NCBI GenBank assembly: GCA_964606485.1
Contig: CAZSGP010000001.1
Coordinates: forward strand, 33,085 to 97,084
Length of the DNA: 64,000 nt
Origin: an uncultured Planctomycetia bacterium
Lineage (GTDB): Bacteria > Omnitrophota > Gorgyraeia > 2-02-FULL-51-18
Direction: 5' to 3'
The notes under the pieces were generated by a model. It saw only the letters and a list, made by a program, of their open reading frames with translations, was not told the DNA's origin and searched no databases. Shown here piece by piece: positions 16,815-50,900 of this stretch. A program made the translations under genes and the position numbers. Positions within the stretch are counted from its first letter, which is position 1; each line of letters begins with the position of its first letter.

Positions 16815-17270
16815 ATGGAAAAAAGTTGGATCGTAGACGGCTACAATTTACTTCACAGTGGTGACAGGTGTTCATCACAAAAGCAGTCCCGTGAGGATCT
16901 TCTCACGAAACTCGCGAACTTTGCCTCGGTGGAGATGAGCCGCGTCACGGTCGTCCTTGATGGCAAGGGACCTCAGTCGGAGCTCGACAAATACCACACC
17001 TCGTTTTTCGAGGCGGTGTACTCTCAAGAGATTCCGGCCGATGCGTTCATCGAAAAGTTAGCCTCCAAAAGCCCTTCTAAACTAGCAACGACAGTGGTAA
17101 CATCGGACCGTGCCATTCAGAACATGGCTTTCGGCTCAGGTGTTTGTGTGGTGAGTTCCAGCGAGTTTAGCCAAACCCTAAAAGAATTTGACAAGAATTT
17201 AAACGACACGTTATTTAAAAAGAAATTTGAATCCCATGGCTTCAATCGTCCTTTCGAAAAAAAATTTTGA
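16815..17270 (+). CDS. NYN-domain (YacP-like) predicted RNase
   Basis: The N-terminus WIVDGYNLLH and TVVLDGKG are characteristic of the YacP/NYN family. Confidence 0.8.
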   Translation: MEKSWIVDGYNLLHSGDRCSSQKQSREDLLTKLANFASVEMSRVTVVLDGKGPQSELDKYHTSFFEAVYSQEIPADAFIEKLASKSPSKLATTVVTSDRAIQNMAFGSGVCVVSSSEFSQTLKEFDKNLNDTLFKKKFESHGFNRPFEKKF

Positions 17271-18393
17271 TCACCCATGGATTTACCGGAGTCTGATCCG
17301 GGAAATCACGGGAACTCCCGTAGATGGATCTGTTGTGGACGTGCTGTCTTCGTCGAAGCAGTTTCTTGCAAAGGCCTACTTTAATTCCAAATCTGAAATC
17401 ACCGTTCGAGCGCTCACGCGCGAAAATCGGCCCATTGATGCTTCCTTTTTTTCTGAAAAAATTAAAAAGGCTGTTGAGTATCGCAAACGCTTTGTGACCG
17501 ATACGAATGCTTACCGCCTTATTTCTAGCGAAGCGGATGATCTTCCGGGTGTGATCGTTGATTTTTATGCAGATATTCTCGTCCTGCAAATTTTAACACT
17601 CGGCATGGAAAAAATGCGGCCACTCATTTTAGCGGCCCTGGAAGCGCATGTTTCGGTAAAGGGAATTTACGAGAAGAGTGATTCTAATTCGAGATCCCTG
17701 GAGGGGTTGGAGCCAAGGGTGGGTTGGATTCGTCAGGATTGTGGAGCGGATGTAGAAGTTTATGAAGGAAAAATTCGTTATTCAGTCCCACTCGGCGGGG
17801 GACATAAAACGGGGTTTTATTTGGATCAACGCGAAAACCGTTTAGGCCTTGCTGCTTCACCCATTCGCGGAAAAGTACTCGATGCTTTTTGTTATACCGG
17901 GGGGTTTGGTTTGCATCTAGCCGCCAAAGGCTGCCAAGTTTTGGGGATTGACCAAAGTGAAGAGGCTTTAAAGCAGGCGGAGGCAAACCGCGAACTCAAT
18001 GGGATTTCTAAAGACAGACTCCAGTTTAAGTGCGCCAATGTTTTTGATGAGCTCAAAAATTTTGACAAGGCGAAGGAAAAATTCGACTGCGTGATTTTGG
18101 ACCCGCCCTCATTTGTGAAGCGTAAAAAAGAGCTCGATGGAGCTCTTTCCGGTTACAAAGAAATCATCCTCCGTTCCCTTAAAATTTTAAACCCCGAATC
18201 TTATTTGTCTGTTTTTTCCTGCTCTTATCACGTGGGGGACGATCTTTTGATGCAGGTCGTGCTCAACGCAGCCTTCGACACCCGCCGGGAAATCAAACTG
18301 ATCAAATTTTTAAAACAGTCGGTCGATCACCCCATCAACCCTTTTATCCCCGAATCGTACTATCTCAAAGGCTTTCTATTTTTTGTCCAATAA
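17227..18393 (+). CDS. class I SAM-dependent rRNA methyltransferase, RlmI-like (PUA plus MTase)
   Basis: N-terminal PUA-like region, then VLDAFCYTGGFGLHLA (SAM motif I) and ILDPPSF (motif IV). The exact start is uncertain; 17227 and 17236 are both possible. Confidence 0.85.
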   Translation: MNPMASIVLSKKNFDHPWIYRSLIREITGTPVDGSVVDVLSSSKQFLAKAYFNSKSEITVRALTRENRPIDASFFSEKIKKAVEYRKRFVTDTNAYRLISSEADDLPGVIVDFYADILVLQILTLGMEKMRPLILAALEAHVSVKGIYEKSDSNSRSLEGLEPRVGWIRQDCGADVEVYEGKIRYSVPLGGGHKTGFYLDQRENRLGLAASPIRGKVLDAFCYTGGFGLHLAAKGCQVLGIDQSEEALKQAEANRELNGISKDRLQFKCANVFDELKNFDKAKEKFDCVILDPPSFVKRKKELDGALSGYKEIILRSLKILNPESYLSVFSCSYHVGDDLLMQVVLNAAFDTRREIKLIKFLKQSVDHPINPFIPESYYLKGFLFFVQ

Positions 18394-18521
18394 ATAAGTC
18401 ATAACCTACTGTTATAAATAAGGTTATAGATCTATTAAATCGCTATCTTCTGCTTGATTTCAGCCACTTCTAATGTAAACTTTAATTAAGGATAGTTAAT
18501 ATTAATTATTCTTAGTAAGGA

Positions 18522-21500
18522 ATGCATATGAGTGGATTTTTAAAACAAAGGGTTTTGGCCCTCTGCTTAATTCTTGTTTTTGGAATTGAGCAGGCCGCTT
18601 TTTGTCTGCCCCAAGACTGGACCGTTGAAAGTGGAGACGTTAGCTTCAATGTCTCCGAAGATAACAGCATGCTTACGATCAATGCCTCGAACAACGCCAT
18701 CATTAACTTCGGAAGCTTTAATATCGGACAGGGGGAAATGGTTCAGTTTATCCAACCCGGAATGGATAGCTCAGTCCTCTCAAGAGTCACGGGTGGAGGA
18801 AGCTCAGACATCTTCGGCTCACTCTTCTCGAACGGACAGTTAGTCCTTATTAACCAAAACGGCATTACCTTCCACGACACCGCTAATGTTCAAGTCGGAA
18901 GTCTCATTGCCTCTACGCTCGACATTCAATCAAGTCTTTATCTCTCAAACCAGTTCACCTTTGAAAAACTAAACAACTCTAACCCTGCCTCTATCTTTAA
19001 CGAAGGAACCATTACAGCTCGAGACGGAGGATCTATTGCTCTGTTATCCGACCAACAAATTCTAAACTCAGGATCCATCACTGCAAACCTTGGAAGCATC
19101 GCCTTAGGTGTTGGTGAAAAACAAACCATCTCCTTTGATAACAACGGTCTAATAAATCTAATTATCGAGTCACCTATCACCACCTCCGGGGTGGGATTAG
19201 GTATCACAAACGCTAGTACGGGTCTTCTACAGGCTAACGGGGGAAGAATCAATCTCTCGGTTAAGACACTCAATGATGTGCTCGATACACTCATTAACAA
19301 CGAAGGAATAATTGAAGCCACACAGGCCGTGGAGAGAGATGGGGAGATTGTGTTTGAGGCCAATGGGATTGTGGAAACAAGAGGCACGATTTCAACGACC
19401 AACCTTTTTATAAATGACAAGACGACGCTCAATGCCCATGACACTCGTTTTAACATTGAAGGCGATTGGAATAATCACGGCGCCTTTAACGGCCAAGAGT
19501 CGACGGTGGAGTTTTTGGGAGCAAAAAATATCCACTATATTTATGGCGATTCTGATTTTTATAATCTCCAAGCCTATGGTTCTAATCGAGCCATATTTTT
19601 TGAGTCACAAAAGCTTCAAAGGGTCTATGGGAAGTTGGATCTCGTTGGTGAATTCGCGAATTTACTTAAAATTCACTCCACTGTTTTAGGGTCTCGTTAT
19701 TTCTTGGATGTTTTGGGGGATTCCCATCTTGATTTCGTGGACGTGCAAGACTCGGCACAGCTTGGCGGAGATGAAATTTTGATCACTCGTTCTCATTCGG
19801 ATGGAAATATATCTGGCTGGAATGCGGATCCTGAATGGACGAATGGAACCGGTGATGGTTTTTGGAACACGGGACTGAATTGGGACAGCGGCGTGGTTCC
19901 GGGAGGCGGCAATACGGTTACGTTTACAGGAAATACAGGTCTTTACCCACAATCCGATGGCAACATGACGCTGAACGCCAACCCAACGATTGCGAATCTC
20001 ACCATCGGCGCGGGTTACGCGGGAATATTTGATTTGAATGGAAATACGATCACCATTACGAATTCATTTACACAAAATGGCGGAACCGTGGCTGGAACGG
20101 GCGGCGGCACCATCGAAGTGCAGGCGGGAGGCGCGTCTGTTAACGGCGGCGCCGCAGGTACATGGACAGGCGGCCGACTTTTCATGAATGTTGGCGGTAG
20201 TGTGACCTGGACTCCTGGAAGTGTTTCTTGGTATGACGTACAAGCCAATCTTCCTGGCGGCGGATGCTGTGACAATTTGACGATTAACGGAGGCGATGCG
20301 CTTGTTACCAATAGCTTCACGCTCAACGGCGCAGAGCTAGCTAGCGGAAATATTAATCTTCAGGGAAATTTATTTATCGCCAACGGCGCTTATGGTGGTG
20401 GTTCCATAACCTTGATGGGAACAGGTCTTCAGGAAATTTCGCAATCAGCCGGATCTTCACCGAATGTGATTATCAATAAAGCCTCGGGCACTGCGCGCAT
20501 TGCGACCGGGTCGATTGATTACACCTTTCAAAGCGGGCGGACGTTCACAATGACGTCCACCGGAACCGGCGTTTTTGATTTGAACGGAAAAACGATGATC
20601 GTTCCTAATTTTACCCAAACCGCAGGAACCGTGACCGACTCTGTGGGTGGGGGGATCTTGCGGGTGACCGGCGCCATGACCGGTGTGGCCGGCAGTTGGA
20701 CGGCCGGCTCCATGGACTTAAATAATGCCGGCAATTTTACCTGGACGCCCGGATCAACTTCCTACTATGACGTGAGCGTTCATCTCCCAGGTGGCGGTTG
20801 CTGCGATAATCTCACTGTTTCCGGAGGCAGCGCAAATGTCACCCATGATCTTACGCTGAATAGCGTTGAAATCAGCTCAGGGAATATCAATGTTCAAAGA
20901 AATCTCATCATGACGGCCAACGTCGCCGGAGGCGCAGGCAGTGTCACATTAAACGGTACCGGAGCTCAAACAATTAGCCAGGGAGCCGGCGGTTCGGCGC
21001 CAAATATCACGATCAATAAAGCCTCTGGCGTGGCATCCATTGACAGCGGTTCTTCGGATATTTCGCTTCAAAGCGGAAGAACGTTTACGATTACGGACAC
21101 AGGATCTGGAAATTTCGATTTGAATAATAAACTCTTAATCACCCCGCACTTTGTGCAAACCGCGGGCACCGTAGCCGGAACAGGCGGTGGCACATTGCGT
21201 GTGACGCAGCCCGGCGGCACGAGTGGTGTTGCGGGGACGTGGACCGGCGGGACACTTCATCTTAACCAAGGTGGAAATTTTGACTGGACTCCCGGCAATG
21301 TAAATTATTACAACGTGAACGTTGATTTTTATGGCGGCGGCTGTTGTGACACCTTTCGATTATTGGGCGGAAGTCAGACAGCTGTTATCACCAATAATCT
21401 TACATTAACGGGTGGCGAATATATGGCGGGGATCTTTGATGTGAGAGGAAATATCACGACTGCCGCAGGCTGGGCGGGTGGCATTGCCTGGTTTACGTTG

Positions 21501-24500
21501 TCAGGCTCCAATAACCAAACGATTGATTTCTCTTTAGGCAATGATCCGGACGGAAATTTTACGATCAATAAATCGGCCGGAACCGTCTCTCTGCTCTCTG
21601 ATTGGGTCTTGGACACGGCGGGTCAGGATTTAACAATCACTTCCGGTGCGCTGGATCTTGATGGGCACAATTTAACGGTGAATGATCAATTTACGATAGG
21701 CGACAACGGGATTTTAAGATTGCTGGGGAGTGAAACCGTTTCAGCGATCGACGCCAACACCGGAACAATTGTTTTTGACGCGCCGGGCGGAGGAGCGCTT
21801 CCCGGAATACCAGGAGGTGCAGGCTCTTACTACGGGGTTGGTTTCGCCGGAGCGGGAAGTTGGACGCTTGGAGCAGATCTTAATATTTCAGGAAATTTCT
21901 TACTTCAAGATACGGCAACGGTCAATTTCCAAAACCACAATCTTGCAATGGGCGGCAGTTTCCAAAAATCAGCGGGGTCTACTCTCAGCAATCTTGGCCT
22001 AACCACGCTCAATGCCACTGGGTTGGCCGCCGCTAAAACGATTACGACGAATGGATATAATTTTTCCAATATGACGGTCAATGGCGCCAATCGTCAGTGG
22101 GATATGCAAGATCAATTGCATGTCACCGGAGATTTGAATATTATTGCCGGTACTTTAAATCTAGCTGGCAGTAATTTAGTGGTCGACAGCACGTTTACCA
22201 ACAACGGAACGCTAGCGATGATCGGTGCTGAAACCGTTTCGAGCATCGATGCCGGAAATGTCAGCGTTTCTTACACCGGCACCGGAACCTACAATAGCCT
22301 TTCACTCGGAAATTCCTACTACAACCTGACGTTTAACGGAGCCGGAACCTGGAATTTAAATTCAGATCTCACGGTGACCAATGACCTCACGCTGACACAA
22401 GGGACACTCGATTTGAATAGCCGCAATTTAGCGGTGACGAATAATTTTGTCGTGGGCGCTTCGGGAAATTTAAGACTGCAGGGCAGCGAAACGGTCTCTG
22501 CAATCGACACCAATAACGGAACTGTTACTTATTATGGAGCTGGAAATTACACGGCCGCTTCGGGCGGTCTCGTGACAGGCGACACGTATAATAATTTAGT
22601 GTTTAACGGTCCCGGAACTTGGGAGCTCGATAATAATCTGACTGTGAATAATAATCTTACCCTTACTCAAGGAACGGTGGATATTAATGCGCACAATCTC
22701 GCCGTCACGACGAATTTTAGTATCGGAGCCACCGGAAATTTACGCCTACAAGGCGCTGAAACTGTTTCAACGATAAACACCAACAACGGAACCGTGACTT
22801 ACGACGGCGCCGGGAATTACACCGCAGCGGCGGGAGGGCTTGTCGCGGGCGACACCTATAACAATCTGGTATTTAATGGTTCGGGAACTTGGGCTCTGGA
22901 CAATAATCTTACTGTGAATAACAGTCTGACGCTCACACAAGGCACGCTGGATTTGGAAGGACGCAATCTCAGTGTTACCGGCACTTTTTCTAACGACGCG
23001 GCACTTCGACTTCAAAATACCGAAACGATCACCTTCACCAGCGGCTTCGATACGAACTCTGGTACCGTTATTTACGACGGGGCTGGCACCTACGGAGCTT
23101 TACGGGCGGCGATGGGAAATGATTATCACAATCTGACACTGACCGGTGCGGGTACATATAATTTGGGTGGCGTGATCAACGTGGAAGGGGATTTCTCTAA
23201 CACAGCCACTCTGAATCACTCCGGCACTCTAATTTTAGACAATGCGAGCGTCACCTCTAATATCAACGGCTCAAGCACATTTAATAATCTCACCATTAAT
23301 GCGGGTAAGACTGTTCGTTTTGCGGCGGCAACAACAACGTCGGTCACCGGAACATTCTCCGCTCAAGGTGTGGCTCTTAACCAGATCACTCTTTCTAGTC
23401 AAACGCCGGGTCAAACCTGGAACATCAATCCGAACGCCCCAGGAGCACTCTTAGATTATCTGAATATTCAAGATTCGATCAACACATCGGGAGTTTTGCT
23501 AAATCCGGCAAACTCGGTGAATCTTGGCAATACGACGCTTTGGTTCCCGGTCCCGGTGGTTGCGGATCAAAATACTGCCTCGGTAAGTCAGGGGGTTATC
23601 GCGATTCAAGACTCAATTAATATCACACAGCCCTCAAATACCGCCCCAGTTGTTTCAGATAACACGCAGCAGCCAGCAGCTTCCCCGGTGTCCGAACCCC
23701 AGCCGGAGGAGCAGCCTGTTTCCTCAGAATCTAAAGTAGAGAGCGACCCCAGTGCGGAGCCTGCAGTGGTGGAGGCCAGCACCGAAACCAAGAAGGAAGA
23801 GAAGAAAGATGAGGAGCAGGCTAGCGAAAGCGAAGAGCCCGCGCAAGAAACCAAGCAGACAGACTCAAAAGAAAACAAGCCTTCAGCAGCAGCGCAGTCT
23901 GTGGAAGTACCGCAAGAGCATCTCCAAGAGCCGATGACAAAAAGTGATCCATTTGATTTTGATAAAACGCTTCAATTCGGTAAAAAAGGCGAAGATTATA
24001 TTTCGGCAAATACCAGCGAAGTAGACGTGAACGAGGGCTCGGTGACCGTGAATGGGCATTTGGTGTACGACGGTGAAAAAGCTTATGTTAAAAATTTTAG
24101 GGACGATCAACGTAACACCGTTTCCACTTCGACCGCGCTTCACATGAGAGGGGTTTATATTGTGACGAGCGAGGGTATGGATGTACTGAGAGCCAAAGTC
24201 CACCAGCCGCTCAATACTCATAATACCGCGTCACCTCTCGTGGATATCGCTGAGTCGAATCAAAAAAATGAAGTTTATTTATTTTCGAAAGGCAAACAGC
24301 TGTCGGTGATGAATACCAATTCTTTCAATGTGAAAGATTATCCGGTTTTAAAAGAGGGTTCGTCCGATGCCCTGATAAGTCCCGACGATAAACAAGCGTT
24401 CGTCACGAACGCCTTTACGGATGAGGTGACGGTTTTAAATTTAAAAGACCATTCCAAAGCACAAACCTTTGAATCTGGAGCGATGCCGCTTCAAGCCACA

Positions 24501-25031
24501 ATTTCAAATGACGGACGCAATCTCTTCGTGTCCAATACGCTCGACGGAACCGTTTCAAAAATTGATTCAAAAACCGGAAAAATGTTAAACACGTTTCAAG
24601 CGGGCACTCTGCCTTATGGGCTTTATGTTTCCAAAAACGGCGAGACGCTTTTTGCATCCGATTATAAAGAGGGCGTTGTGAGAGTGCTAGATACGACATC
24701 CGGAATCGAAAAAGCGAAGATTTCTGTCGGCGACGGGCCGTATTTGCTGGAAGCGGACGCCAAAGAGAACATTCTCCTCGTTTCAAACCGCAAAGATAAC
24801 ACCGTCTCTGTGATTGATATGGCGACGCTGACGGAGCGCACCAAGATTTCAGTTGGGGATCGTCCAATGGGCATGGCCATTACCCCAGAAGGTGATAAAG
24901 CATACGTCGCCAATCAACTGTCCAATACGGTTTCTTTGATTGATCTCAAATCCAACCGGGTTTTAGAAAATATTCCGACTGACTCGGCGCCCTCGCGAAT
25001 TCTTATCGGGGGTCATAAGGAGAAGGGCTGA
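18522..25031 (+). CDS. giant secreted TPS-domain exoprotein (TpsA-like adhesin) with beta-helix repeats, acidic Pro/Glu/Ser linker and C-terminal YVTN beta-propeller
   Basis: Signal peptide, then the filamentous-hemagglutinin N-terminal (TPS) domain with SVLSRVTGGGSSDIFGSLFSNGQLVLINQNGITF (NPNGI-type motif). Long Asn/Thr/Gly-rich parallel beta-helix repeats follow. The EPQPEEQP...KKEEKKDEEQ linker is followed by at least five YVTN-type propeller repeats (AFVTNAFTDEVTV, LFVSNTLDGTVSKID, AYVANQLSNTVSLID). Confidence 0.9.
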   Translation: MHMSGFLKQRVLALCLILVFGIEQAAFCLPQDWTVESGDVSFNVSEDNSMLTINASNNAIINFGSFNIGQGEMVQFIQPGMDSSVLSRVTGGGSSDIFGSLFSNGQLVLINQNGITFHDTANVQVGSLIASTLDIQSSLYLSNQFTFEKLNNSNPASIFNEGTITARDGGSIALLSDQQILNSGSITANLGSIALGVGEKQTISFDNNGLINLIIESPITTSGVGLGITNASTGLLQANGGRINLSVKTLNDVLDTLINNEGIIEATQAVERDGEIVFEANGIVETRGTISTTNLFINDKTTLNAHDTRFNIEGDWNNHGAFNGQESTVEFLGAKNIHYIYGDSDFYNLQAYGSNRAIFFESQKLQRVYGKLDLVGEFANLLKIHSTVLGSRYFLDVLGDSHLDFVDVQDSAQLGGDEILITRSHSDGNISGWNADPEWTNGTGDGFWNTGLNWDSGVVPGGGNTVTFTGNTGLYPQSDGNMTLNANPTIANLTIGAGYAGIFDLNGNTITITNSFTQNGGTVAGTGGGTIEVQAGGASVNGGAAGTWTGGRLFMNVGGSVTWTPGSVSWYDVQANLPGGGCCDNLTINGGDALVTNSFTLNGAELASGNINLQGNLFIANGAYGGGSITLMGTGLQEISQSAGSSPNVIINKASGTARIATGSIDYTFQSGRTFTMTSTGTGVFDLNGKTMIVPNFTQTAGTVTDSVGGGILRVTGAMTGVAGSWTAGSMDLNNAGNFTWTPGSTSYYDVSVHLPGGGCCDNLTVSGGSANVTHDLTLNSVEISSGNINVQRNLIMTANVAGGAGSVTLNGTGAQTISQGAGGSAPNITINKASGVASIDSGSSDISLQSGRTFTITDTGSGNFDLNNKLLITPHFVQTAGTVAGTGGGTLRVTQPGGTSGVAGTWTGGTLHLNQGGNFDWTPGNVNYYNVNVDFYGGGCCDTFRLLGGSQTAVITNNLTLTGGEYMAGIFDVRGNITTAAGWAGGIAWFTLSGSNNQTIDFSLGNDPDGNFTINKSAGTVSLLSDWVLDTAGQDLTITSGALDLDGHNLTVNDQFTIGDNGILRLLGSETVSAIDANTGTIVFDAPGGGALPGIPGGAGSYYGVGFAGAGSWTLGADLNISGNFLLQDTATVNFQNHNLAMGGSFQKSAGSTLSNLGLTTLNATGLAAAKTITTNGYNFSNMTVNGANRQWDMQDQLHVTGDLNIIAGTLNLAGSNLVVDSTFTNNGTLAMIGAETVSSIDAGNVSVSYTGTGTYNSLSLGNSYYNLTFNGAGTWNLNSDLTVTNDLTLTQGTLDLNSRNLAVTNNFVVGASGNLRLQGSETVSAIDTNNGTVTYYGAGNYTAASGGLVTGDTYNNLVFNGPGTWELDNNLTVNNNLTLTQGTVDINAHNLAVTTNFSIGATGNLRLQGAETVSTINTNNGTVTYDGAGNYTAAAGGLVAGDTYNNLVFNGSGTWALDNNLTVNNSLTLTQGTLDLEGRNLSVTGTFSNDAALRLQNTETITFTSGFDTNSGTVIYDGAGTYGALRAAMGNDYHNLTLTGAGTYNLGGVINVEGDFSNTATLNHSGTLILDNASVTSNINGSSTFNNLTINAGKTVRFAAATTTSVTGTFSAQGVALNQITLSSQTPGQTWNINPNAPGALLDYLNIQDSINTSGVLLNPANSVNLGNTTLWFPVPVVADQNTASVSQGVIAIQDSINITQPSNTAPVVSDNTQQPAASPVSEPQPEEQPVSSESKVESDPSAEPAVVEASTETKKEEKKDEEQASESEEPAQETKQTDSKENKPSAAAQSVEVPQEHLQEPMTKSDPFDFDKTLQFGKKGEDYISANTSEVDVNEGSVTVNGHLVYDGEKAYVKNFRDDQRNTVSTSTALHMRGVYIVTSEGMDVLRAKVHQPLNTHNTASPLVDIAESNQKNEVYLFSKGKQLSVMNTNSFNVKDYPVLKEGSSDALISPDDKQAFVTNAFTDEVTVLNLKDHSKAQTFESGAMPLQATISNDGRNLFVSNTLDGTVSKIDSKTGKMLNTFQAGTLPYGLYVSKNGETLFASDYKEGVVRVLDTTSGIEKAKISVGDGPYLLEADAKENILLVSNRKDNTVSVIDMATLTERTKISVGDRPMGMAITPEGDKAYVANQLSNTVSLIDLKSNRVLENIPTDSAPSRILIGGHKEKG
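20028..21654 (+). repeat. three in-frame 540-nt (180-aa) coding repeats inside the exoprotein gene, each with a GGGCCD vicinal-Cys motif
   Basis: Repeat units start FDLNG(N/K) at about 20028, 20574 and 21114. Each contains WTPG...YYDV...GGGCCD. They are diverged at about 50% aa identity. Confidence 0.85.
22317..23126 (+). repeat. three tandem in-frame 270-nt (90-aa) repeats (YNNLVFNG-PGTW...NLTLTQGT-DL...NLAVT...NLRLQG-ETVS...NNGTVTY-GAGNYTAA) with more degenerate copies upstream from about 21780
   Basis: Direct reading of the translated ORF shows units beginning near 22317, 22587 and 22857. They share about 75% aa identity. Confidence 0.85.
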
Positions 25032-25056: not shown

Positions 25057-25959
25057 ATGAGAAAATCAACTCTGTGGATTATTATTCTCGGCACTCTCAT
25101 TTCATCGCATGCATCCGCTTTCAAGCTTTCCGGTTTTGAAACTCCCGAAAGTTTTCTGGTGGACCCCGAAGATGGTTCTTATTACGTATCCAATATTAGC
25201 GGCGACCCTCTTGCTAAAGATTCAAATGGCTACATCTCTAAAATTACAGCCAACGGAAACACAGTGGTCCAAAAATTTATCGGCGAAAAGAAAGACGAAA
25301 TGCCGCTACACGCCCCGAAGGGCCTGCTCATCAGCGGAAAAATTCTTTTTGTCACTGACATCGATACGGTAAAAGGGTTTTACAAATCAAACGGAAAGCC
25401 CGCGGTACTCGTTGATTTGGCCGGTTGGAATGTGACGTTTCTAAATGATCTTGCCATGGATAAAGACGGGCTAATTTATGTGAGCGACATGCTCGCCAAC
25501 CGGATTTTTTCGATTAACCCCAAAAAAAATTACGAAGTGAAACTATTCAAGTCCGGTCCGGAACTCGGAAACCCAAACGGCTTAATGGTGAATCCTAAAA
25601 CCAAGTATTTGATGGTGGTGACATGGGGATCCGGTCAGATTTTGGAAATTGACCGTCGCACCGGAAAAGTGTTTGTGGTTAAAAAGGGTCTGATGGGTCT
25701 CGATGGAATTGATTCTGACGGAGAAGGAAATCTTTACGTCTCTAGTTTCCAAAAAGGGGAAATTTATAAAATTCCGAATCTTGGCCGCGGGACGCTCACC
25801 ACTTTCGAGGGGGGTCTTAAGACGCCGGCCGATATTTCTTTTGACCGCAAACGCAAAGAAGTTCTAGTGCCGTCTTTCGAAGGAAACACGGTGGAAACTG
25901 TTCCGGTGGTTCCAGTTAAAAAGGCCGAAAAAAGTAAGGATCTTAAGGTAGTAGAGTAG
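25057..25959 (+). CDS. secreted beta-propeller protein (SMP-30/gluconolactonase/NHL-like)
   Basis: Signal peptide MRKSTLWIIILGTLISSHASA. Repeated YVS / DG blade-like motifs. The family assignment is tentative. Confidence 0.6.
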   Translation: MRKSTLWIIILGTLISSHASAFKLSGFETPESFLVDPEDGSYYVSNISGDPLAKDSNGYISKITANGNTVVQKFIGEKKDEMPLHAPKGLLISGKILFVTDIDTVKGFYKSNGKPAVLVDLAGWNVTFLNDLAMDKDGLIYVSDMLANRIFSINPKKNYEVKLFKSGPELGNPNGLMVNPKTKYLMVVTWGSGQILEIDRRTGKVFVVKKGLMGLDGIDSDGEGNLYVSSFQKGEIYKIPNLGRGTLTTFEGGLKTPADISFDRKRKEVLVPSFEGNTVETVPVVPVKKAEKSKDLKVVE

Positions 25960-44935: not shown

Positions 44936-47900
44936 ATGCCCATATTTAACAAACATTTTAAATTTAAAAAAATTAGTTTCTTGAGAGCTATTTCTTTAGC
45001 TTTGTTAATGGCCTTTATAGGTCAAGATCTTCTCTGGGCTAGTCCTGATCTCAAATTTGAACACCCCACTCAAAATCTCAAATGGGCCAAAAGTATTCTC
45101 CCTAGTCTTCCCGAAACTGTCGTAAAACTAGAAGATGCCTGGAAGGCCTGCCTGCCGGTAGGCAAGGGGCCGGACCCCTCTGGCACCGTGATTCTTATTC
45201 AAGACGCTCACACGAATCCTTCAGGGCAGATGAATTTGGCCAAGACGTTGGATCTTGTCTTATCTAGTCGGCGGGACCTGTCAGCGACTCATATCTTCCT
45301 CGAAGCGGGAACCGGCGACGACTCTCTGTCGTATCTAAGAAAGAACGGCTCTCTCAAAGATCGTCAACAGATCGCCATGAAATATTTAAAAAAAGGCGAA
45401 CTTCATGGAGAGGAATATTTAGATCTTACTTCGAATCACAACATTACGCTCTGGGGCGTTGAAGACAAAGTACTTTACTTAAAAGCACTTCGAGACTACA
45501 AAGTCGTTGCATCCCAAAGAAGCAAGTTTCAAAACACTCTCGATAAAATCAAAGTCACGACTCAAGTTTTAAAACCTAGAATCTTAAACCCACTGCTCTT
45601 GTCTCTTGAAGACAGTCGCCAGAAATTTCAAAAAGGGGAGCTCTCCTTTACGGAATATGCAGATTTTCTTTTGACGCTTCAAAAATCAGTAGAAAGCTCC
45701 CATACTTATTCTCATCTTACGAAGCTCGGCAAATTCAAGGGTTTGGAGCAAAAACTCGCGGCTCGGAAAGTGTCGGCCCGCCATCAAAAAGCGATTGTAA
45801 GCCGGCTTCTTAAAGCGTCCAAGGCGCTAGATTACGCACAGGTGCTGAGCGAGCAAAAAGCGCTCGAGCTTGAACTCTTTCAGGCGCTTATCCAAAACGA
45901 AGAGGAGCGGCGATTCATTGATTGCATTAAACTCCAGGAGTTTTACCGGAAACTTTTTAATTTCTCGCTGACACCGGAGGAATACAAAGAATTTAAAAGT
46001 TTGAACTTAAATATTCAATCGCTGACTGGCTTTCTCAACCGTCAAATTATGTCTCTAGGAAGTTACTACGAGAACGCTTTATTTCTTGAGCCGGGGTTTG
46101 ATGAAGTGATTCAAAAGGCTGAAGACTTCTATGGGTTGACACTCAAGCGCGATGAGAAATTTGTTGAGAATATGCTGAGTCAAAGCGAGAAGCAGCGGGT
46201 GGCGGCGGTAGGTGTCCGTCTCGAAAACACCGAAGGTGGCTTTCGAACGGACAACCGCCAGGCAGCCTGCCTGCCGGCAGGCAGGGACCCGCTGCGGACG
46301 GCCGCCGTTCTGATTACAGGTGGTTACCACACTCCCAATCTCAAAAACATTCTGAAATCCAAAAATATTTCCTACATTTCCCTGATTCCCCAGGTGACTC
46401 AAGAAACCAATCAGAAACGATACGAAAAAATTCTCTTTGGTCAAAATCTTCAAGAGAGCCATTTTCCCAAAATTCAAGGAGCGGTTCCAAGTTCTATGAT
46501 GACGGCCCCTCAGGCTGAGGTTGCGGGGAGTCGGTTGGTGGGGGAAATCGCGGCGCTACCTCGCAATTCCACCCCGGAGGTGGTGATAGGTTGCCAAAAA
46601 GTTAGTTTTGGCGCCCGCCTAGCAATCATCGTCATGCCACATTTGTCGGTTCCGCTAGCGATGAGTAAGCGGGCTTTCGGAGTTGCATCCAGTTTTCTGG
46701 GACACGAAAAAGCGGTGATTGAGGATTATTCGCTGAAGGTTGCGAAAGAGCTGAAGGAAGACGGTTTTAATTTTCACAAAAAAGAATACAAGAACATGCT
46801 TTTCCGGTGTCTCGAAGTGTTATTTGCGCCCGCTTTTTTGGAGAACACCCAACAGAAACTGATTTTGATCGGCAAAATGGAGGATTTTCTTAAAGAATTT
46901 AAAATGATTCTCGGTAATTTCAGACCGGCAAAAAATGAGGAGATGTCGGATTTTTCGGTGGTGGACATCGGCTGGTATTTTCTGGTTCGACTTTTAACCA
47001 TTCAAAGTATGAAAGTGCAGTGGACTCCGCATGATCAGATGGCTGCTCATGATGATTTGCTTAGGCGAGCGATTGCAACGGTGTTGAGAGACGCCAAGGC
47101 CTTGCAGTCCGATGCCAGGTTATTTTTCGAAATCAATAAGGAATTTGCGCTTCGCGCCGAGAAAATGATGAGGGCAGTTGGAAGTCTTTCGTTGTCTCAG
47201 GATTTTCGCACTCGTTTTTTTCATGCGCTTGAATGGTTTGTGAGCTACGTCGAAAATCCCTCTGCGGATTTTGAGGATGACGCCGTTACGGTTAAGGAAT
47301 TAGTTTCTTTTGAGCCGGTGGGCAAGTCGATTGCTAAAGAAGCCGCTGAAAATCGGATCACCGAAGATTTGCTAAATCGACTGCGACTCGTGTTTGCTCC
47401 GGTGGAAAGCCCGGAAGAAGAAATTTGGCACGAACCGCTGGATTACTTTGCAAGTTTGCTGAATCCCGAAAAAATAAGAGTGATGCAACTGTCTCCGGCT
47501 ATGGGTTTTCAAGATCAACCCGTCGATGGTGACACTAGCGGTTTATCGAGAACATTTCTTTTTCAAATTAGGTGGTTTGAGGCGCTAACTCAGAAAAACC
47601 ACAGCTATAACCGGTGGATTGTGCCGGACATGGACGCTTATCTTGAACCACTAATTGCGGAGCTAAGTTCCGACCCGAGTGCCATTGACCGGTGTCTCAG
47701 CAAGCTTCCGGATTATTTCTCAAGCGCCGGACCGTCCCCCGAGCGTATGACCTTGCGCGAGTATTTGGGATTAGACAGCGTCATCTTAAGTGACCGCGCC
47801 CGCATGTCTCTTCTTTTTTTTCAGGAATTAAAAAAAGCGTCAATTCGACAGAATGCCAGCGTATTTTTACTACGCGAGCATGATTTAACTCTGGGTTCCA

Positions 47901-50900
47901 CTGTGGTGAGACACGGAGCTCACAAGAAACGAACCAATCATTTGGAAGGCCTACTTAAAACAGGGCCGGTTTTAGTGCTAGGCTCTTTTGTTTTTGATGT
48001 GGAAACGACGGACGATTGGTTTGGGCTTTGTGTAGGAGACAAACAAATTGTTCGAATCAATCAGGAAAAATCAGATTATGTGGGAGGTTCTACGGCCTAT
48101 CACTTAATGGACGCTGTTGTTTTTACCGTTACGCAACTCGCGGAGAGCTTTAGTTGGGGAGCGGGTTCTTTGAAAACATCGGGCGTTTACATCAAGGATT
48201 CCGAAGGACTTAACCCTAAGCTCAGAGAATTTTTAGAACACGTGAAAAAGGAGCACGAAGGACAGCTTCAGGCTGGGTTGGCCGCTGATTTGAAGCAGCA
48301 GGCCTTGGGTAAAATTCATTATGTTGTTGTTACTAGAGTGACCGACGGGGAACGGGCACCGATTGAAAGGAGTCCGGAGAATAAGCGGACTCCGGCCGGA
48401 TCGTTGAGCGGCGCCCGCCTTGCGGCGTCACCGAAGTTTTGGCGCATAAAAAAATCGGTAGGGGGTTCGAGTGCGACGACAATCGGGGATCTCAAAATGA
48501 GCGCAATTCAAATTGCGGGCGAAATTGTCGACGCCGTGCATGGGCAAGTGCAAAAAGATAAATCTGCCGTGATGAGTGCTGAGAAGATGAAAAATCTGCT
48601 CTCGGGAATTATTGATAACGCTCTCGACGCCATTCAAGATGGTTTTCCTTCTCACAAATACGAAGGCGCGGAAATAGAGATCGAAGCCATTATTGGACAC
48701 GGCCGGCTTATCTTAAAAGTCAGTGATAATGGCGCGCCTTTTAGCAATGAAGCGATGGCGAATGCGGGTCGGCGAAGGTTTACCACTAAAGATCCTGATT
48801 TTGAAGGCAAGATTTATTATGGCGGTAACGGTATTTTTCTTAAGCGCACGTCTGAGCAAGTCAGGGGTTTGGGTGGAAAAATGTCGATTAGAAATTTTGC
48901 CGATCGCCAAGGCTCATGTGTGTCATTTAACCTGCCTTTCGAAGTTCCGTTGGGCGCGCGACTCGCCAGCACCCGTGATTTTAATCAAATGAGTGCGCAG
49001 GAAGTGCGAGCGACTTTGAAGGATCTTAAAGATTCCAAAGAAATAAAGGCCAAATCCATTTCAAAGGAATGGCAGGCTTTTCGAGCGTTCGGGAAGAGAC
49101 GCGTTGCGGGTGTTGTGGTGGTTCGTAAGATTGGCGGACGTTGGAGCTTTTTGATGGCCCGGCGAACCAATCACGGGGACAATGCGGGGCTCTTTACATT
49201 TCCCGCTGGAAAAAAAGAGAGGGGCGAGCCCGTTAAAAAGGCAGCTTCGAGAGAGCTTTCCGAAGAAGGTAAGATTTCGGTAAATTCCAACCGGTTGAAA
49301 ATTATGTTGGATGAATTTTACGGGTATAAACGGGAAATTCTTTTAAATTACTACGTTTTCGTCGACGCATCTGAAGAAAGTGAGATTGCGCCAACAAAGG
49401 AGCTCGACCATTTTACATGGGTTCCTCTGGATGAAATTATTTTGTCGAAACCTGGCGAATCCGCAAAAGCGGTCACGGCGTGGCTTGCGCTCAAAAATAC
49501 AGATTTAGCCAACATTGAAATTATCAGCGGAATTAATCCTAACGGACTCGAAAGCCTCCGAAATGTTTTTGCCAAAGTTTATGAACGCATCGAATCGAAG
49601 GAAAGTGCTGCGGCGCGGCTCGCCCAAGAAAGCCCCAATCCATTTTTTACAAAATCTGAATTTGAAGAAGCATGCCGAGCGTTAAAAGGTGTGGTGGTGA
49701 GAACGCCGTTGAGACGCTTAGAGCGAATGAGTAAGGCCGCCGGAAAACCGGTTTTCCTCAAGAACGAAGCCGAGCAAATCGGGGAAGCGTTTAAAATTAG
49801 AGGTGTTTACTACCAGGTTTATTGCGCGGTCCGCGAAGCAATCCAAGATGGGTTTAATTTTCTGGAAAATTTCTTAATTATTTTCACGCAGTCTACCGGC
49901 AACCACGGAATTGCCATGATTTTATCGGTGGCAAAAATCGTTAATTCGTTTGGGCAAAATAAAATCCTGCCAATTGTTTTTACATTCAAAGAGCTTCCGC
50001 CGGTGAAACGTTTTTTTATGGAGAAGGCGCTCGGCGAATACCGCAAGGCGAGCGGCAACCCCACTGCCGGAAAAATTGTGGACGAGGTGGATGGAAAACA
50101 GTTTGAGCATTACTCGGAAATGGTCCGGCACCGGAATTTATTTAAAGAAGAAAACGCCGCTGTGGCGCGCTACATGTCGCACGCGGACCCGAATATCATG
50201 CTTGGTCACGGCTCGGCGGGAATTGAAATTCATGAGCAATTAAACGAGGCGGGAATAGGGCCGAATAAAAAAGTGACACTCATTCTTCCGATTGGCGCGG
50301 GCGGGCCGCTCGGAATTGCCGCGGCACTTAAGCTTTCAAGGTCAAACGTAACGGTTGTAATGGTTCAGTGTCCGGATTTTGACGCATTTGTGCGAACGCT
50401 TCGGAGCGGAAAAACCCAGACCAACCCTAAGAAGGATCCCAAAGCTTATCTCCTCAACGGAAAGACAGTTTTTTTAAGAACGCTTGCGGACGGCATTGCA
50501 GTGGACGGCCCCGAAAATGAGCGCGCCGTTGAGATTGCACGCGAGTTTGTCGATCTCTCAGTTGTGGTAGATGACGCCCACGCAGTGGATAACGCCGGTG
50601 TCACGGTGTACCGCGATTTGCAAAAAAGTTTTGAAGAGACTCGGAAGCCGGTCGAAAGCGTGCGCGTGGGTGGGACCGCGGCGATTGCGGCACAAGCGAT
50701 TATCAATTTTAAAAATCGTCCCGAAATAAAAAATGCCGACGCAATTGTGGTGCTCGGAACCGAAGGAAATGTGATTGAAGAACTCACTGAGCATTTAGCG
50801 GGGCAGTCGATTCGGTATAGAGACGATGAACTATCAGTTGCGCTTATTCGGCAGGTTGATGAAAAGCCGTTAACCGTCGAGCAGGTATTCAGTTTACCAG

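What the first reader, a model, noticed from the sequence alone, without database searches (positions are those of the whole stretch)
18522..25031. Orphan two-partner-secretion (TPS) exoprotein: TPS domain, beta-helix and YVTN propeller, with no TpsB partner in the window
The N-terminus carries a clear hemagglutination-activity/TPS domain (..VLSRVTGGGSSDIFGSLFSNGQLVLINQNGITF..). TPS domains normally require an adjacent FhaC/ShlB-type TpsB transporter, and none is encoded within 18 kb on either side. Downstream is a secreted beta-propeller protein and upstream is rlmI. A YVTN beta-propeller C-terminus on a TpsA-type beta-helix is an unusual architecture. It may be a surface adhesin or S-layer-like fibre of this lineage.
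Basis: partly seen in the sequence, partly recalled or inferred. Interest (0 to 1): 0.65.

Follow-up and report, generated by a model that had tools for sequence, protein, structure and literature searches.

The report
Inserted TpsA adhesin gene lacking TpsB
This is a genuine two-partner-secretion fibre protein tipped with a seven-bladed propeller, inserted alone into a conserved housekeeping gene block of an Omnitrophota-like bacterium, so its outer-membrane transporter is probably encoded elsewhere: an ordinary kind of system in an uncommon but already documented arrangement.

Summary
ORF 18522-25031 (+) is intact; its true start is probably 18528. It has a signal peptide and a TPS domain (Pfam 81.9 bits against a cut-off of 33.5), and the N-terminal model's best PDB matches are the HMW1, EtpA and HxuA secretion domains. 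About 1,200 residues of internal repeats and an acidic linker follow. The C-terminus is a YVTN propeller whose best match is PDB 1L0Q. No TpsB is encoded anywhere in the 64 kb.

TPS+YVTN recurs in at least seven cluster representatives. Three of the four homologues with retrievable context have a convergent ShlB-type TpsB abutting the gene, and so do 7 of 7 more distant relatives with enough flank.

In relatives (56-59% NuoN identity), rlmI lies directly beside the propeller gene or nuoN. So the window's TpsA is a lineage-specific insertion that arrived without a TpsB. Its mature TPS domain (aa 29-274) is 100% identical to that of a second, otherwise ~31%-identical TpsA (P0002), probably a paralogue in the same genome. 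This suggests one shared, unlinked TpsB, an arrangement the TPS literature already documents. The rest of the genome could not be reached, so the TpsB remains unfound.

Verdict: new member of a known kind, modest interest.

The parts
17227..18393 (+). RlmI-like rRNA methyltransferase gene: left boundary of the insertion and part of the conserved host block
   Evidence: PUA_3 + Methyltrans_SAM. Orthologues at 51-54% identity lie directly beside the SGL-like gene or nuoN in L020 and L022; L021 holds only a 58-residue rlmI fragment (66% identical) at its contig end, in the same position.
18394..18521 (+). 128-nt AT-rich leader, with inverted repeat ATAACCT/AGGTTAT and Shine-Dalgarno-like AAGGA at 18517-18521
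   Evidence: Read directly. No sigma-70 consensus match. In L022 the corresponding rlmI-to-SGL spacer is only ~33 nt.
18522..25031 (+). TpsA-type exoprotein gene, 2169 aa (probable true start 18528, 2167 aa)
18522..18605 (+). Sec-type signal peptide (aa 1-28: basic N-region, hydrophobic core, AAFC|LPQD)
   Evidence: Read from the sequence. Helix at aa 5-20 in the model. Homologues share the A-x-A-LP junction. This part differs from P0002.
18606..19343 (+). TPS 'cassette' (aa 29-274): the mature TPS secretion domain, 246/246 identical to P0002 aa 47-292
   Evidence: Pfam TPS covers aa 45-291. Fold matches HMW1, EtpA and HxuA. The NPNG motif is present as NQNG at aa 111-114.
19842..21476 (+). 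Three ~180-aa repeats (aa ~440-985, 45-63% identical), each with a vicinal Cys-Cys in GGGCCD
21477..23381 (+). About seven ~90-aa repeats (aa ~985-1620, up to 76% identical); presumed beta-helical stalk
   Evidence: No Pfam or PDB sequence match.
23547..23990 (+). Pro/Glu/Ser/Lys/Gln-rich low-complexity linker (aa ~1676-1823)
   Evidence: Composition computed.
23991..25028 (+). C-terminal module (aa 1824-2169): short beta-strand lead-in plus a seven-bladed YVTN propeller
   Evidence: TIGR02276 and PF21783. Model pLDDT 91.5. Best PDB match 1L0Q. 33-49% identical (MAFFT alignment) in P0002-P0005 and P0009.
25057..25959 (+). Secreted SGL/SMP-30-like propeller gene: right boundary of the insertion and part of the conserved host block, not of the TPS system
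   Evidence: PF08450. Unrelated to the TpsA propeller, E 0.09. 59-60% orthologues sit next to rlmI in L021 and L022.

Best explanation
The gene encodes a bona fide type Vb (two-partner secretion) passenger.

How it is built and exported: a Sec signal peptide takes it to the periplasm. The HMW1/EtpA-type TPS domain (aa 29-274) is the address tag recognised by the POTRA domains of a TpsB (ShlB/FhaC-type Omp85) channel. The repeat-built stalk of ~1,200 residues is threaded out and folds outside the cell. A flexible acidic linker then presents a seven-bladed YVTN propeller, which is the conserved ligand-binding head of this small family.

How it got here: in this genome the gene was inserted alone between rlmI and a conserved propeller gene next to the nuo operon, so it has no transporter of its own.

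What exports it: secretion most likely depends on a TpsB encoded elsewhere in the genome. That TpsB would be shared with at least one paralogue (P0002) whose mature TPS domain is kept 100% identical, probably by gene conversion, so that one channel recognises both.

Likely role: cell-surface adhesion of a host-dependent Omnitrophota-like cell to a partner or prey.

Shown: the TpsA identity, the domain anatomy, the absence of a TpsB from the window, the insertion, and the identical cassette.
Inferred: the existence and sharing of an unlinked TpsB, the beta-helical stalk, the topology, and the adhesin role.
For: TPS and YVTN domains score above curated cut-offs. Both folds were confirmed with confident models.

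Same-architecture homologues carry an abutting convergent TpsB in L001, L005 and L006. All 7 related TpsA loci with enough flank have an adjacent TpsB. The family is therefore TpsB-dependent.

Synteny: in L022 the order is HTH17-NYN-rlmI-SGL-nuoN, and L021 shows rlmI-SGL-nuoN as far as its contig extends. In L020 rlmI abuts nuoN. None has a TpsA or TpsB there. The window and these relatives are roughly equidistant, so one gain is more parsimonious than three losses.

GC and GC3 of the gene match the host genes, and there are no flanking repeats.

Residues 29-274 are 246/246 identical to P0002, while the rest is ~31% identical. Ten housekeeping proteins of this organism have no relative at 90% identity among about 15 billion proteins. 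An independent Logan assembly breaks inside the cassette. Together these point to a second copy in the same genome.

The review PMC5422565 states that other genetic arrangements exist and that some TpsBs secrete more than one TpsA. PMC10066038 supports host-dependent lifestyles and large adhesins in Omnitrophota.
Against: No TpsB of this genome was found. None of the 120 best TpsB hits lies on a contig of 546,306 bp (the window's) or 164,235 bp (P0002's). Two candidates with the right source signature belong to other organisms. The genome is absent from the GTDB-representative and JGI collections.

That P0002 comes from the same genome is inferred, not shown.

The NPNG motif reads NQNG. This variant is shared by 4 of the 26 aligned sequences, two of which are the window protein and P0002 with the identical cassette.

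The direction of the event, insertion rather than loss, rests on parsimony without a rooted tree.

No expression or localisation data exist.
Confidence: 0.6

Rival explanations
1. True orphan. The genome has no TpsB, so the protein is either stranded or degraded in the periplasm (a gene on its way to decay) or exported by another Omp85-family or unknown route.
For: No TpsB in the 64-kb window. No close TpsB was detected on either cassette-bearing contig.
Against: The 6.5-kb ORF is intact, with a good ribosome-binding site. Its TPS domain is kept identical to that of a paralogue whose passenger has diverged to ~31%, which indicates ongoing selection or conversion on the transporter-recognition domain. 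All relatives examined use TpsBs. The search scored only 8000 word-sharing candidates and listed 120, and the genome's other contigs could not be examined. No TpsB-independent export of a TPS-domain protein is described in the review consulted.
Confidence: 0.12
2. Ordinary linked locus. A TpsB lies just outside the window, or the TpsA arrived with a TpsB that was then deleted.
For: Adjacency is the rule in relatives.
Against: The gene is flanked on both sides by the conserved host block, with only 128 nt and 25 nt of spacer and no TpsB remnant. The nearest unexamined DNA is 18 kb upstream and 39 kb downstream. No TpsB hit carries the window contig's length.
Confidence: 0.08
3. Assembly artefact. 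The contig was mis-joined at the repeated TPS cassette, so the 5' context (rlmI) and the passenger do not belong together.
For: The cassette is multi-copy and breaks a short-read assembly. The 5' junction has no independent confirmation.
Against: The left flank (rlmI) and right flank (the SGL-like gene and nuoN) are neighbours in three independent relatives. A chimeric join would be very unlikely to reunite syntenic partners. The 3' junction is confirmed by an independent Logan contig.
Confidence: 0.04
4. The protein is a structural surface-layer or sheath fibre rather than an adhesin.
For: The best structural match of the propeller is a domain of an archaeal S-layer protein.
Against: The resemblance is at the level of a generic YVTN propeller, which occurs in thousands of unrelated secreted proteins. 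The family is rare and patchy, and the gene is a recent lineage-specific insertion absent from relatives, which does not fit a core envelope component. Characterised TpsAs with this TPS type (HMW1, EtpA, HxuA) are adhesins or ligand binders.
Confidence: 0.1

Closest known systems
HMW1/HMW2 (Haemophilus influenzae) and EtpA (enterotoxigenic E. coli) TpsA adhesins
   Same: The TPS domain is of the second (HMW1-type) family, without the NPNL hairpin. These are the best structural and sequence matches (2ODL E 2e-17; 8CPK; phmmer 1.8e-33 and 2.8e-25). All are large repeat-built secreted adhesin-type passengers.
   Different: Those genes sit in operons with their TpsB and a glycosyltransferase. They have no C-terminal propeller. 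Identity here is only 26-29% and is limited to the TPS domain.
TpsAs served by a shared or promiscuous TpsB: Bordetella FhaS/FhaB with FhaC, and the meningococcal TpsA/TpsB systems
   Same: A TpsA without its own transporter is served by the TpsB of a paralogue. The review cites Julio and Cotter 2005 for a TpsB that secretes more than one TpsA, and van Ulsen 2008 for promiscuous TpsBs. That fhaS is unlinked to fhaC, and that FhaS and FhaB share a near-identical N-terminus, is from my own memory and was not checked here.
   Different: The partner TpsB here is unidentified. The organism is an uncultured Omnitrophota-like lineage. The shared tract coincides exactly with the mature TPS domain.
TPS+YVTN 'filamentous hemagglutinin family proteins' of Candidatus Omnitrophota MAGs (P0003, P0004 = MFT5207338.1, P0005, P0009, P0505)
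   Same: They have the same architecture. The TPS domains (N-terminal ~330 aa) are 47-52% identical and the C-terminal modules 33-41% identical, and the stalk length varies.
   Different: Three of the four with context have an abutting convergent TpsB. The fourth, P0005, is followed by a second TpsA and its contig then ends. The window copy has no adjacent TpsB, carries unique Cys-Cys motifs, and lies in a housekeeping block.
YVTN beta-propeller of the Methanosarcina mazei surface-layer protein (PDB 1L0Q)
   Same: Seven-bladed YVTN fold, 28% identity, TM 0.78, rmsd 1.6 A; phmmer E 1.8e-37.
   Different: It is an archaeal S-layer protein with PKD domains. It has no TPS domain and no beta-helical stalk.
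CdiA/BcpA contact-dependent inhibition toxins
   Same: They are TpsA family members with modular, recombining ends and orphan cassettes.
   Different: This protein has no VENN or pre-toxin motif and no toxin domain, and no immunity gene follows it. Here the conserved, exchanged module is the N-terminal TPS domain, not the C-terminus.

Membership tests
TpsA (type Vb / two-partner secretion passenger) | N-terminal Sec signal peptide | tested here: met
   aa 1-28 show a basic N-region, a hydrophobic core and an AAFC|LP junction. The model has a helix at aa 5-20. No dedicated signal-peptide predictor was available.
TpsA (type Vb / two-partner secretion passenger) | TPS secretion domain recognised by the family HMMs above curated thresholds | tested here: met
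   PF05860 scores 81.9 bits against 33.5; TIGR01901 scores 66.2 bits against 29.1.
TpsA (type Vb / two-partner secretion passenger) | TPS beta-helix fold | tested here: met
   AlphaFold2 model pLDDT 86.7. The top 19 PDB matches are all TPS domains: HMW1, EtpA, HxuA, FHA and HpmA.
TpsA (type Vb / two-partner secretion passenger) | Conserved NPNG turn motif | tested here: inconclusive
   The motif reads NQNG (aa 111-114). N and G are invariant in the 26-sequence alignment, whereas the P varies (NPNG 11, NQNG 4, others 11). The effect of Q on secretion is unknown.
TpsA (type Vb / two-partner secretion passenger) | Cognate TpsB (Omp85 with two POTRA domains) encoded next to it | tested here: not met
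   None in the 64-kb window. Adjacency is usual but not defining.
TpsA (type Vb / two-partner secretion passenger) | A TpsB somewhere in the same genome | not testable with these tools
   The source genome is absent from the searchable contig collections. The indirect contig-length check found none on the 546-kb contig. Two candidates were excluded by GC content.
TpsA (type Vb / two-partner secretion passenger) | Long beta-helical repeat passenger | tested here: inconclusive
   Two repeat families cover aa ~440-1620, and they are homologous to the passengers of other TpsAs. The region was not modelled and has no Pfam or PDB match.
YVTN / YncE-type beta-propeller | YVTN repeats and a seven-bladed propeller fold | tested here: met
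   TIGR02276 114 bits; PF21783 55 bits. The model has 27 strands after aa 62 plus an N-terminal closing strand. The best match is the seven-bladed 1L0Q.
CdiA-type CDI toxin | Pre-toxin VENN motif, C-terminal toxin domain, immunity gene downstream | tested here: not met
   No VENN or VDNN in the sequence and no toxin Pfam hit. The downstream gene is a conserved host gene.
Mobile element / genomic island cargo | Flanking direct or inverted repeats, integrase or transposase, tRNA target, deviant composition | tested here: not met
   No shared k-mer of 9 nt or more at the junctions, and GC and GC3 resemble the host genes. No recombinase lies nearby. The only tRNAs are at 53.3-53.6 kb.

The most novel reading that the evidence does not exclude
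The organism has no TpsB at all. Its TPS-domain fibres (this gene and P0002) would then cross the outer membrane by another route, such as a BamA/TamA-type or unknown channel, with the 100%-identical TPS cassette serving as the shared address for that route. A milder version is that Omnitrophota-like nanobacteria diversify propeller-tipped adhesins by shuffling passengers behind a gene-converted, invariant TPS cassette.
Probability: 0.07. Interest if true: 0.7.

Novelty: new member of a known kind. Interest (0 to 1): 0.3.

Why it matters
The finding adds a clean example of how TPS passengers spread inside a genome: a 6.5-kb adhesin gene dropped without its transporter into a conserved housekeeping block. 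The transporter-recognition domain is kept identical to a paralogue's while the passengers diverge.

It also flags a small, undescribed subfamily of propeller-tipped TpsAs in Omnitrophota-like bacteria. Two Omnitrophota genomics papers that discuss large surface proteins do not mention TPS systems. If these cells are host-dependent, as proposed, such fibres are candidates for attachment factors.

It does not challenge how type Vb secretion is understood.

Tried and rejected
(1) Reaching the rest of the genome. Exact look-ups of P0001 and P0002 returned nothing. A MetK look-up worked once but hid the NCBI record, and then failed.

(2) One-scan composite query. I built a real TpsB plus a window TPS tag, with scrambled rows to steer the tool's pattern choice, and tuned it over six viral-collection dry runs. 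In genome contigs only the tag pattern was accepted, and nothing was confirmed. So the window's genome and P0002's are not among the GTDB representatives.

(3) JGI metagenome scan for more cassette copies: the best hit was 45% identical.

(4) Guessing the genome's TpsB among hits by source signature, amino-acid composition and a mirror-tree profile. P0190 and P0152 turned out to come from genomes with 60% and 54.5% GC.

(5) Searching with the C-terminal module alone returned only generic short YVTN proteins. The exhaustive profile search was dominated by multi-propeller giants.

(6) Considered and rejected:
- The downstream SGL-like gene as a partner or as a cassette of the TpsA. It is unrelated in sequence and conserved in relatives that lack the TpsA.
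- A CDI toxin (no VENN motif, toxin domain or immunity gene).
- Transposon or island cargo (no repeats, recombinase or compositional skew).

Full report
WHAT IS THERE

The ORF lies at exactly 18522-25031 on the + strand and encodes 2169 residues without interruption. A Shine-Dalgarno-like AAGGA at 18517-18521 abuts the first ATG but lies 6 nt before a second ATG at 18528. The real product is therefore probably the 2167-residue protein that the public protein collection holds as P0001, on an NCBI contig of 546,306 bp.

Pfam's TPS model scores 81.9 bits against a gathering score of 33.5 (aa 45-291). NCBIfam's filamentous-hemagglutinin N-terminal model scores 66.2 against 29.1. The YVTN repeat model scores 114 bits, and the YncE-type propeller model 55 bits, at aa ~1900-2165.

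STRUCTURE

An AlphaFold2 model of residues 1-330, built on 26 homologues, has pLDDT 86.7. Its 19 best matches among solved structures are all TPS secretion domains: HMW1 (E 2e-17), EtpA, HxuA, FHA and HpmA. The domain belongs to the second, HMW1-type TPS family, which lacks the NPNL hairpin. Its NPNG turn reads NQNG. In the alignment N and G are invariant but the proline is not: NPNG occurs 11 times, NQNG 4 times, and other variants 11 times.

A model of residues 1824-2169 has pLDDT 91.5. It best matches the seven-bladed YVTN propeller of a Methanosarcina surface-layer protein, 1L0Q (TM 0.78, rmsd 1.6 A, 28% identity).

Between the two ends lie:
- Three ~180-residue repeats (45-63% identical), each with a vicinal Cys-Cys in a GGGCCD motif.
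- About seven ~90-residue repeats (up to 76% identical).
- A 148-residue Pro/Glu/Ser/Lys/Gln-rich linker.

This central part matches no Pfam family and no solved chain. That it is a beta-helix is an inference from family context.

NO TpsB IN THE WINDOW

Every ORF of at least 150 residues that is not nested inside a larger annotated gene was scanned against Pfam.
- Upstream lie a CusB/AcrB efflux pair, an ArsP permease, an AsmA-like protein, an HTH_17 protein, a NYN/YacP protein and an RlmI-like methyltransferase.
- Downstream lie a 300-residue secreted SGL/SMP-30-like propeller protein and then, convergent, the nuo operon.
- Elsewhere lie transporters, a histidine kinase, a Liv-type ABC system, a 2761-residue multidomain ORF, PTS proteins, MetK and AhcY.

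None is an Omp85, ShlB or POTRA protein. tblastn with two Omnitrophota TpsBs gives nothing better than E = 2.1.

THE FAMILY NORMALLY HAS A TpsB

Proteins with both TPS and YVTN/YncE domains recur in the databases: P0001-P0005, P0009 and P0505. The named ones are labelled Candidatus Omnitrophota 'filamentous hemagglutinin family protein'. An exhaustive profile search with the family's C-terminal module against 1.84 billion representatives found full-length, single-stretch, C-terminal matches only in these proteins, plus one stand-alone 360-residue protein. The family is therefore small.

Genomic context could be retrieved for four members.
- In L001, L005 and L006 a ShlB/POTRA_2-type TpsB abuts the 3' end of the TpsA in convergent orientation. 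L001 also carries a second TpsA/TpsB pair.
- In L099 the TpsA is followed by a second TpsA, and the contig then ends.

Eight more distant relatives from JGI metagenomes were also checked. All seven with enough flank have an adjacent TpsB. The architecture is therefore not TpsB-independent; the window copy is the exception.

WHY THE WINDOW COPY HAS NO TpsB

A scan of one genome per GTDB species with the window's NuoN found four close relatives at 56-61% identity. One is labelled Candidatus Omnitrophota and three 'uncultured Planctomycetia'. Everything else was at or below 46%. This supports a PVC/Omnitrophota placement and shows the lineage is deep-branching.

tblastn of the window's proteins against the relatives' loci gives the following gene orders:
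- L022: HTH17-NYN-rlmI-SGL-like-(convergent) nuoN, with rlmI and the SGL-like gene about 33 nt apart.
- L021: rlmI-SGL-like-(convergent) nuoN, as far as its contig extends.
- L020: AsmA-HTH17-NYN-rlmI-nuoN.
- None has a TpsA or TpsB there.

The window has the same block with the 6.5-kb TpsA gene sitting exactly between rlmI and the SGL-like gene. The window and these relatives are roughly equidistant from each other (NuoN 55-66%, NuoM ~80%). A single gain in the window's lineage is therefore more parsimonious than three losses.

The junctions carry no shared repeat of 9 nt or more, no recombinase is nearby, and the gene's GC and GC3 match the host genes. So there is no sign of a transposon, an island or recent foreign origin, and the insertion mechanism is unknown. 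The flanking synteny also argues against a mis-assembly, because the left and right flanks are natural neighbours.

A SHARED TPS CASSETTE

The closest homologue, P0002 (1797 residues, NCBI only, on a 164,235-bp contig), is 246/246 identical to the window protein over residues 29-274. [quoted passage not shown] The signal peptide differs, and the rest is only ~31% identical (50% in the propeller).

Ten housekeeping proteins of the window are singletons at 90% identity among about 15 billion proteins. They are seen only on the 546-kb NCBI contig and in one Logan assembly. An independent Logan contig from SRR12487046 starts at about residue 250 of this gene, inside the cassette, as expected where an assembler meets a repeat.

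The simplest reading is that P0002 is a paralogue in the same genome and that the TPS domain is homogenised by gene conversion. Functionally this fits two passengers addressed to one TpsB. The TPS review states that arrangements other than a single operon exist and that some TpsBs secrete more than one TpsA or are promiscuous (PMC5422565).

WHAT COULD NOT BE SETTLED

The TpsB itself was not found.
- A profile of four Omnitrophota TpsBs retrieved 134 proteins. None of the 120 listed lies on a contig of 546,306 or 164,235 bp.
- The genome is not in the GTDB-representative collection or the JGI metagenomes.
- Two candidates with the right source signature come from organisms with 60% and 54.5% GC, against the window's 47.8%.

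A true orphan, with no TpsB in the genome, therefore remains possible. It is disfavoured by the intact ORF, by the conserved recognition domain and by the family's habits.

FUNCTION

Three things point to an extended surface fibre presenting a ligand-binding propeller:
- The stalk varies in length across the family (members range from 1248 to 2355 residues), while the C-terminal module is conserved at 33-49% identity.
- A flexible acidic linker precedes the propeller.
- The TPS domain is of the type found in adhesins and ligand binders (HMW1, EtpA, HxuA).

Omnitrophota are proposed to be ultra-small and host-dependent, and to use very large surface proteins for cell-cell adhesion (PMC10066038). 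Neither that paper nor a 2026 preprint on Omnitrophota long proteins mentions TPS systems. The adhesin role, the topology and the ligand are inferences.

VERDICT

This is a real TpsA of a small propeller-tipped subfamily, inserted without its transporter into a conserved block and probably served by a TpsB shared with a paralogue. That makes it a new member of a known kind in a documented type of arrangement, so interest is modest (0.3). The only high-novelty reading left open is a genome with no TpsB at all, at about 7%.

Noticed in passing
window 44936-53221 (+): Giant 2761-residue ORF combining HATPase_c (aa 1216-1336), NUDIX (aa 1387-1510) and a PLP-dependent PALP domain (aa 1587-1940). 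The NUDIX part has a weak hit to PADLOC candidate defence family PDC-S07. The first ~1200 and last ~800 residues have no annotation.
   Followed up: partly
window 19172-19194 (+) and 46569-46591 (-): An exact 23-mer, ACCTATCACCACCTCCGGGGTGG, occurs once inside the TPS cassette and once on the opposite strand inside the giant ORF. Zero matches are expected by chance. It contains the palindrome CCACC-TCCGG-GGTGG and remains unexplained.
   Followed up: partly
window 20265-20270, 20799-20804, 21342-21347 (aa 582/583, 760/761, 941/942): Three vicinal Cys-Cys pairs in a GGGCCD motif, one per ~180-residue repeat. None of 12 homologues has any Cys-Cys pair. They may form vicinal disulfides or a metal site in a secreted stalk.
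   Followed up: partly
L005 9312-9806; L006 2062-2505 and 2529-4316: A FecR-domain gene lies directly upstream of the TPS+YVTN TpsA in two of the three loci with a TpsB. In L006 a CHASE2-GGDEF gene lies between them, hinting at a dedicated sensory or c-di-GMP control module. It is absent from the window.
   Followed up: no
L003 (Logan SRR12487046_18891); L007/L008; L009: Short-read and MAG contigs repeatedly end at or inside TpsA genes. The Logan copy of the window gene starts at about residue 250. Two unrelated TpsB genes lie at contig ends facing a truncated or missing TpsA. TPS loci in these lineages are therefore systematically under-assembled.
   Followed up: partly
window 25057-25959 (+): The secreted SGL/SMP-30-like propeller gene overlaps the 3' end of nuoN by 17 nt in convergent orientation. 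It is conserved at 59-60% identity in the same position in L021 and L022 but absent from L020.
   Followed up: partly
whole window: The organism is isolated in sequence space. Ten housekeeping proteins are singletons at 90% identity, and the nearest species representatives share only 56-61% NuoN identity. Three of the four are labelled 'uncultured Planctomycetia' and one Candidatus Omnitrophota, so the public taxonomic labels for this clade are inconsistent.
   Followed up: partly
P0446 (360 aa): A stand-alone protein matches the whole family-specific C-terminal module, lead-in strands plus propeller, at E 1e-123. The module therefore also exists outside TpsA fusions.
   Followed up: no
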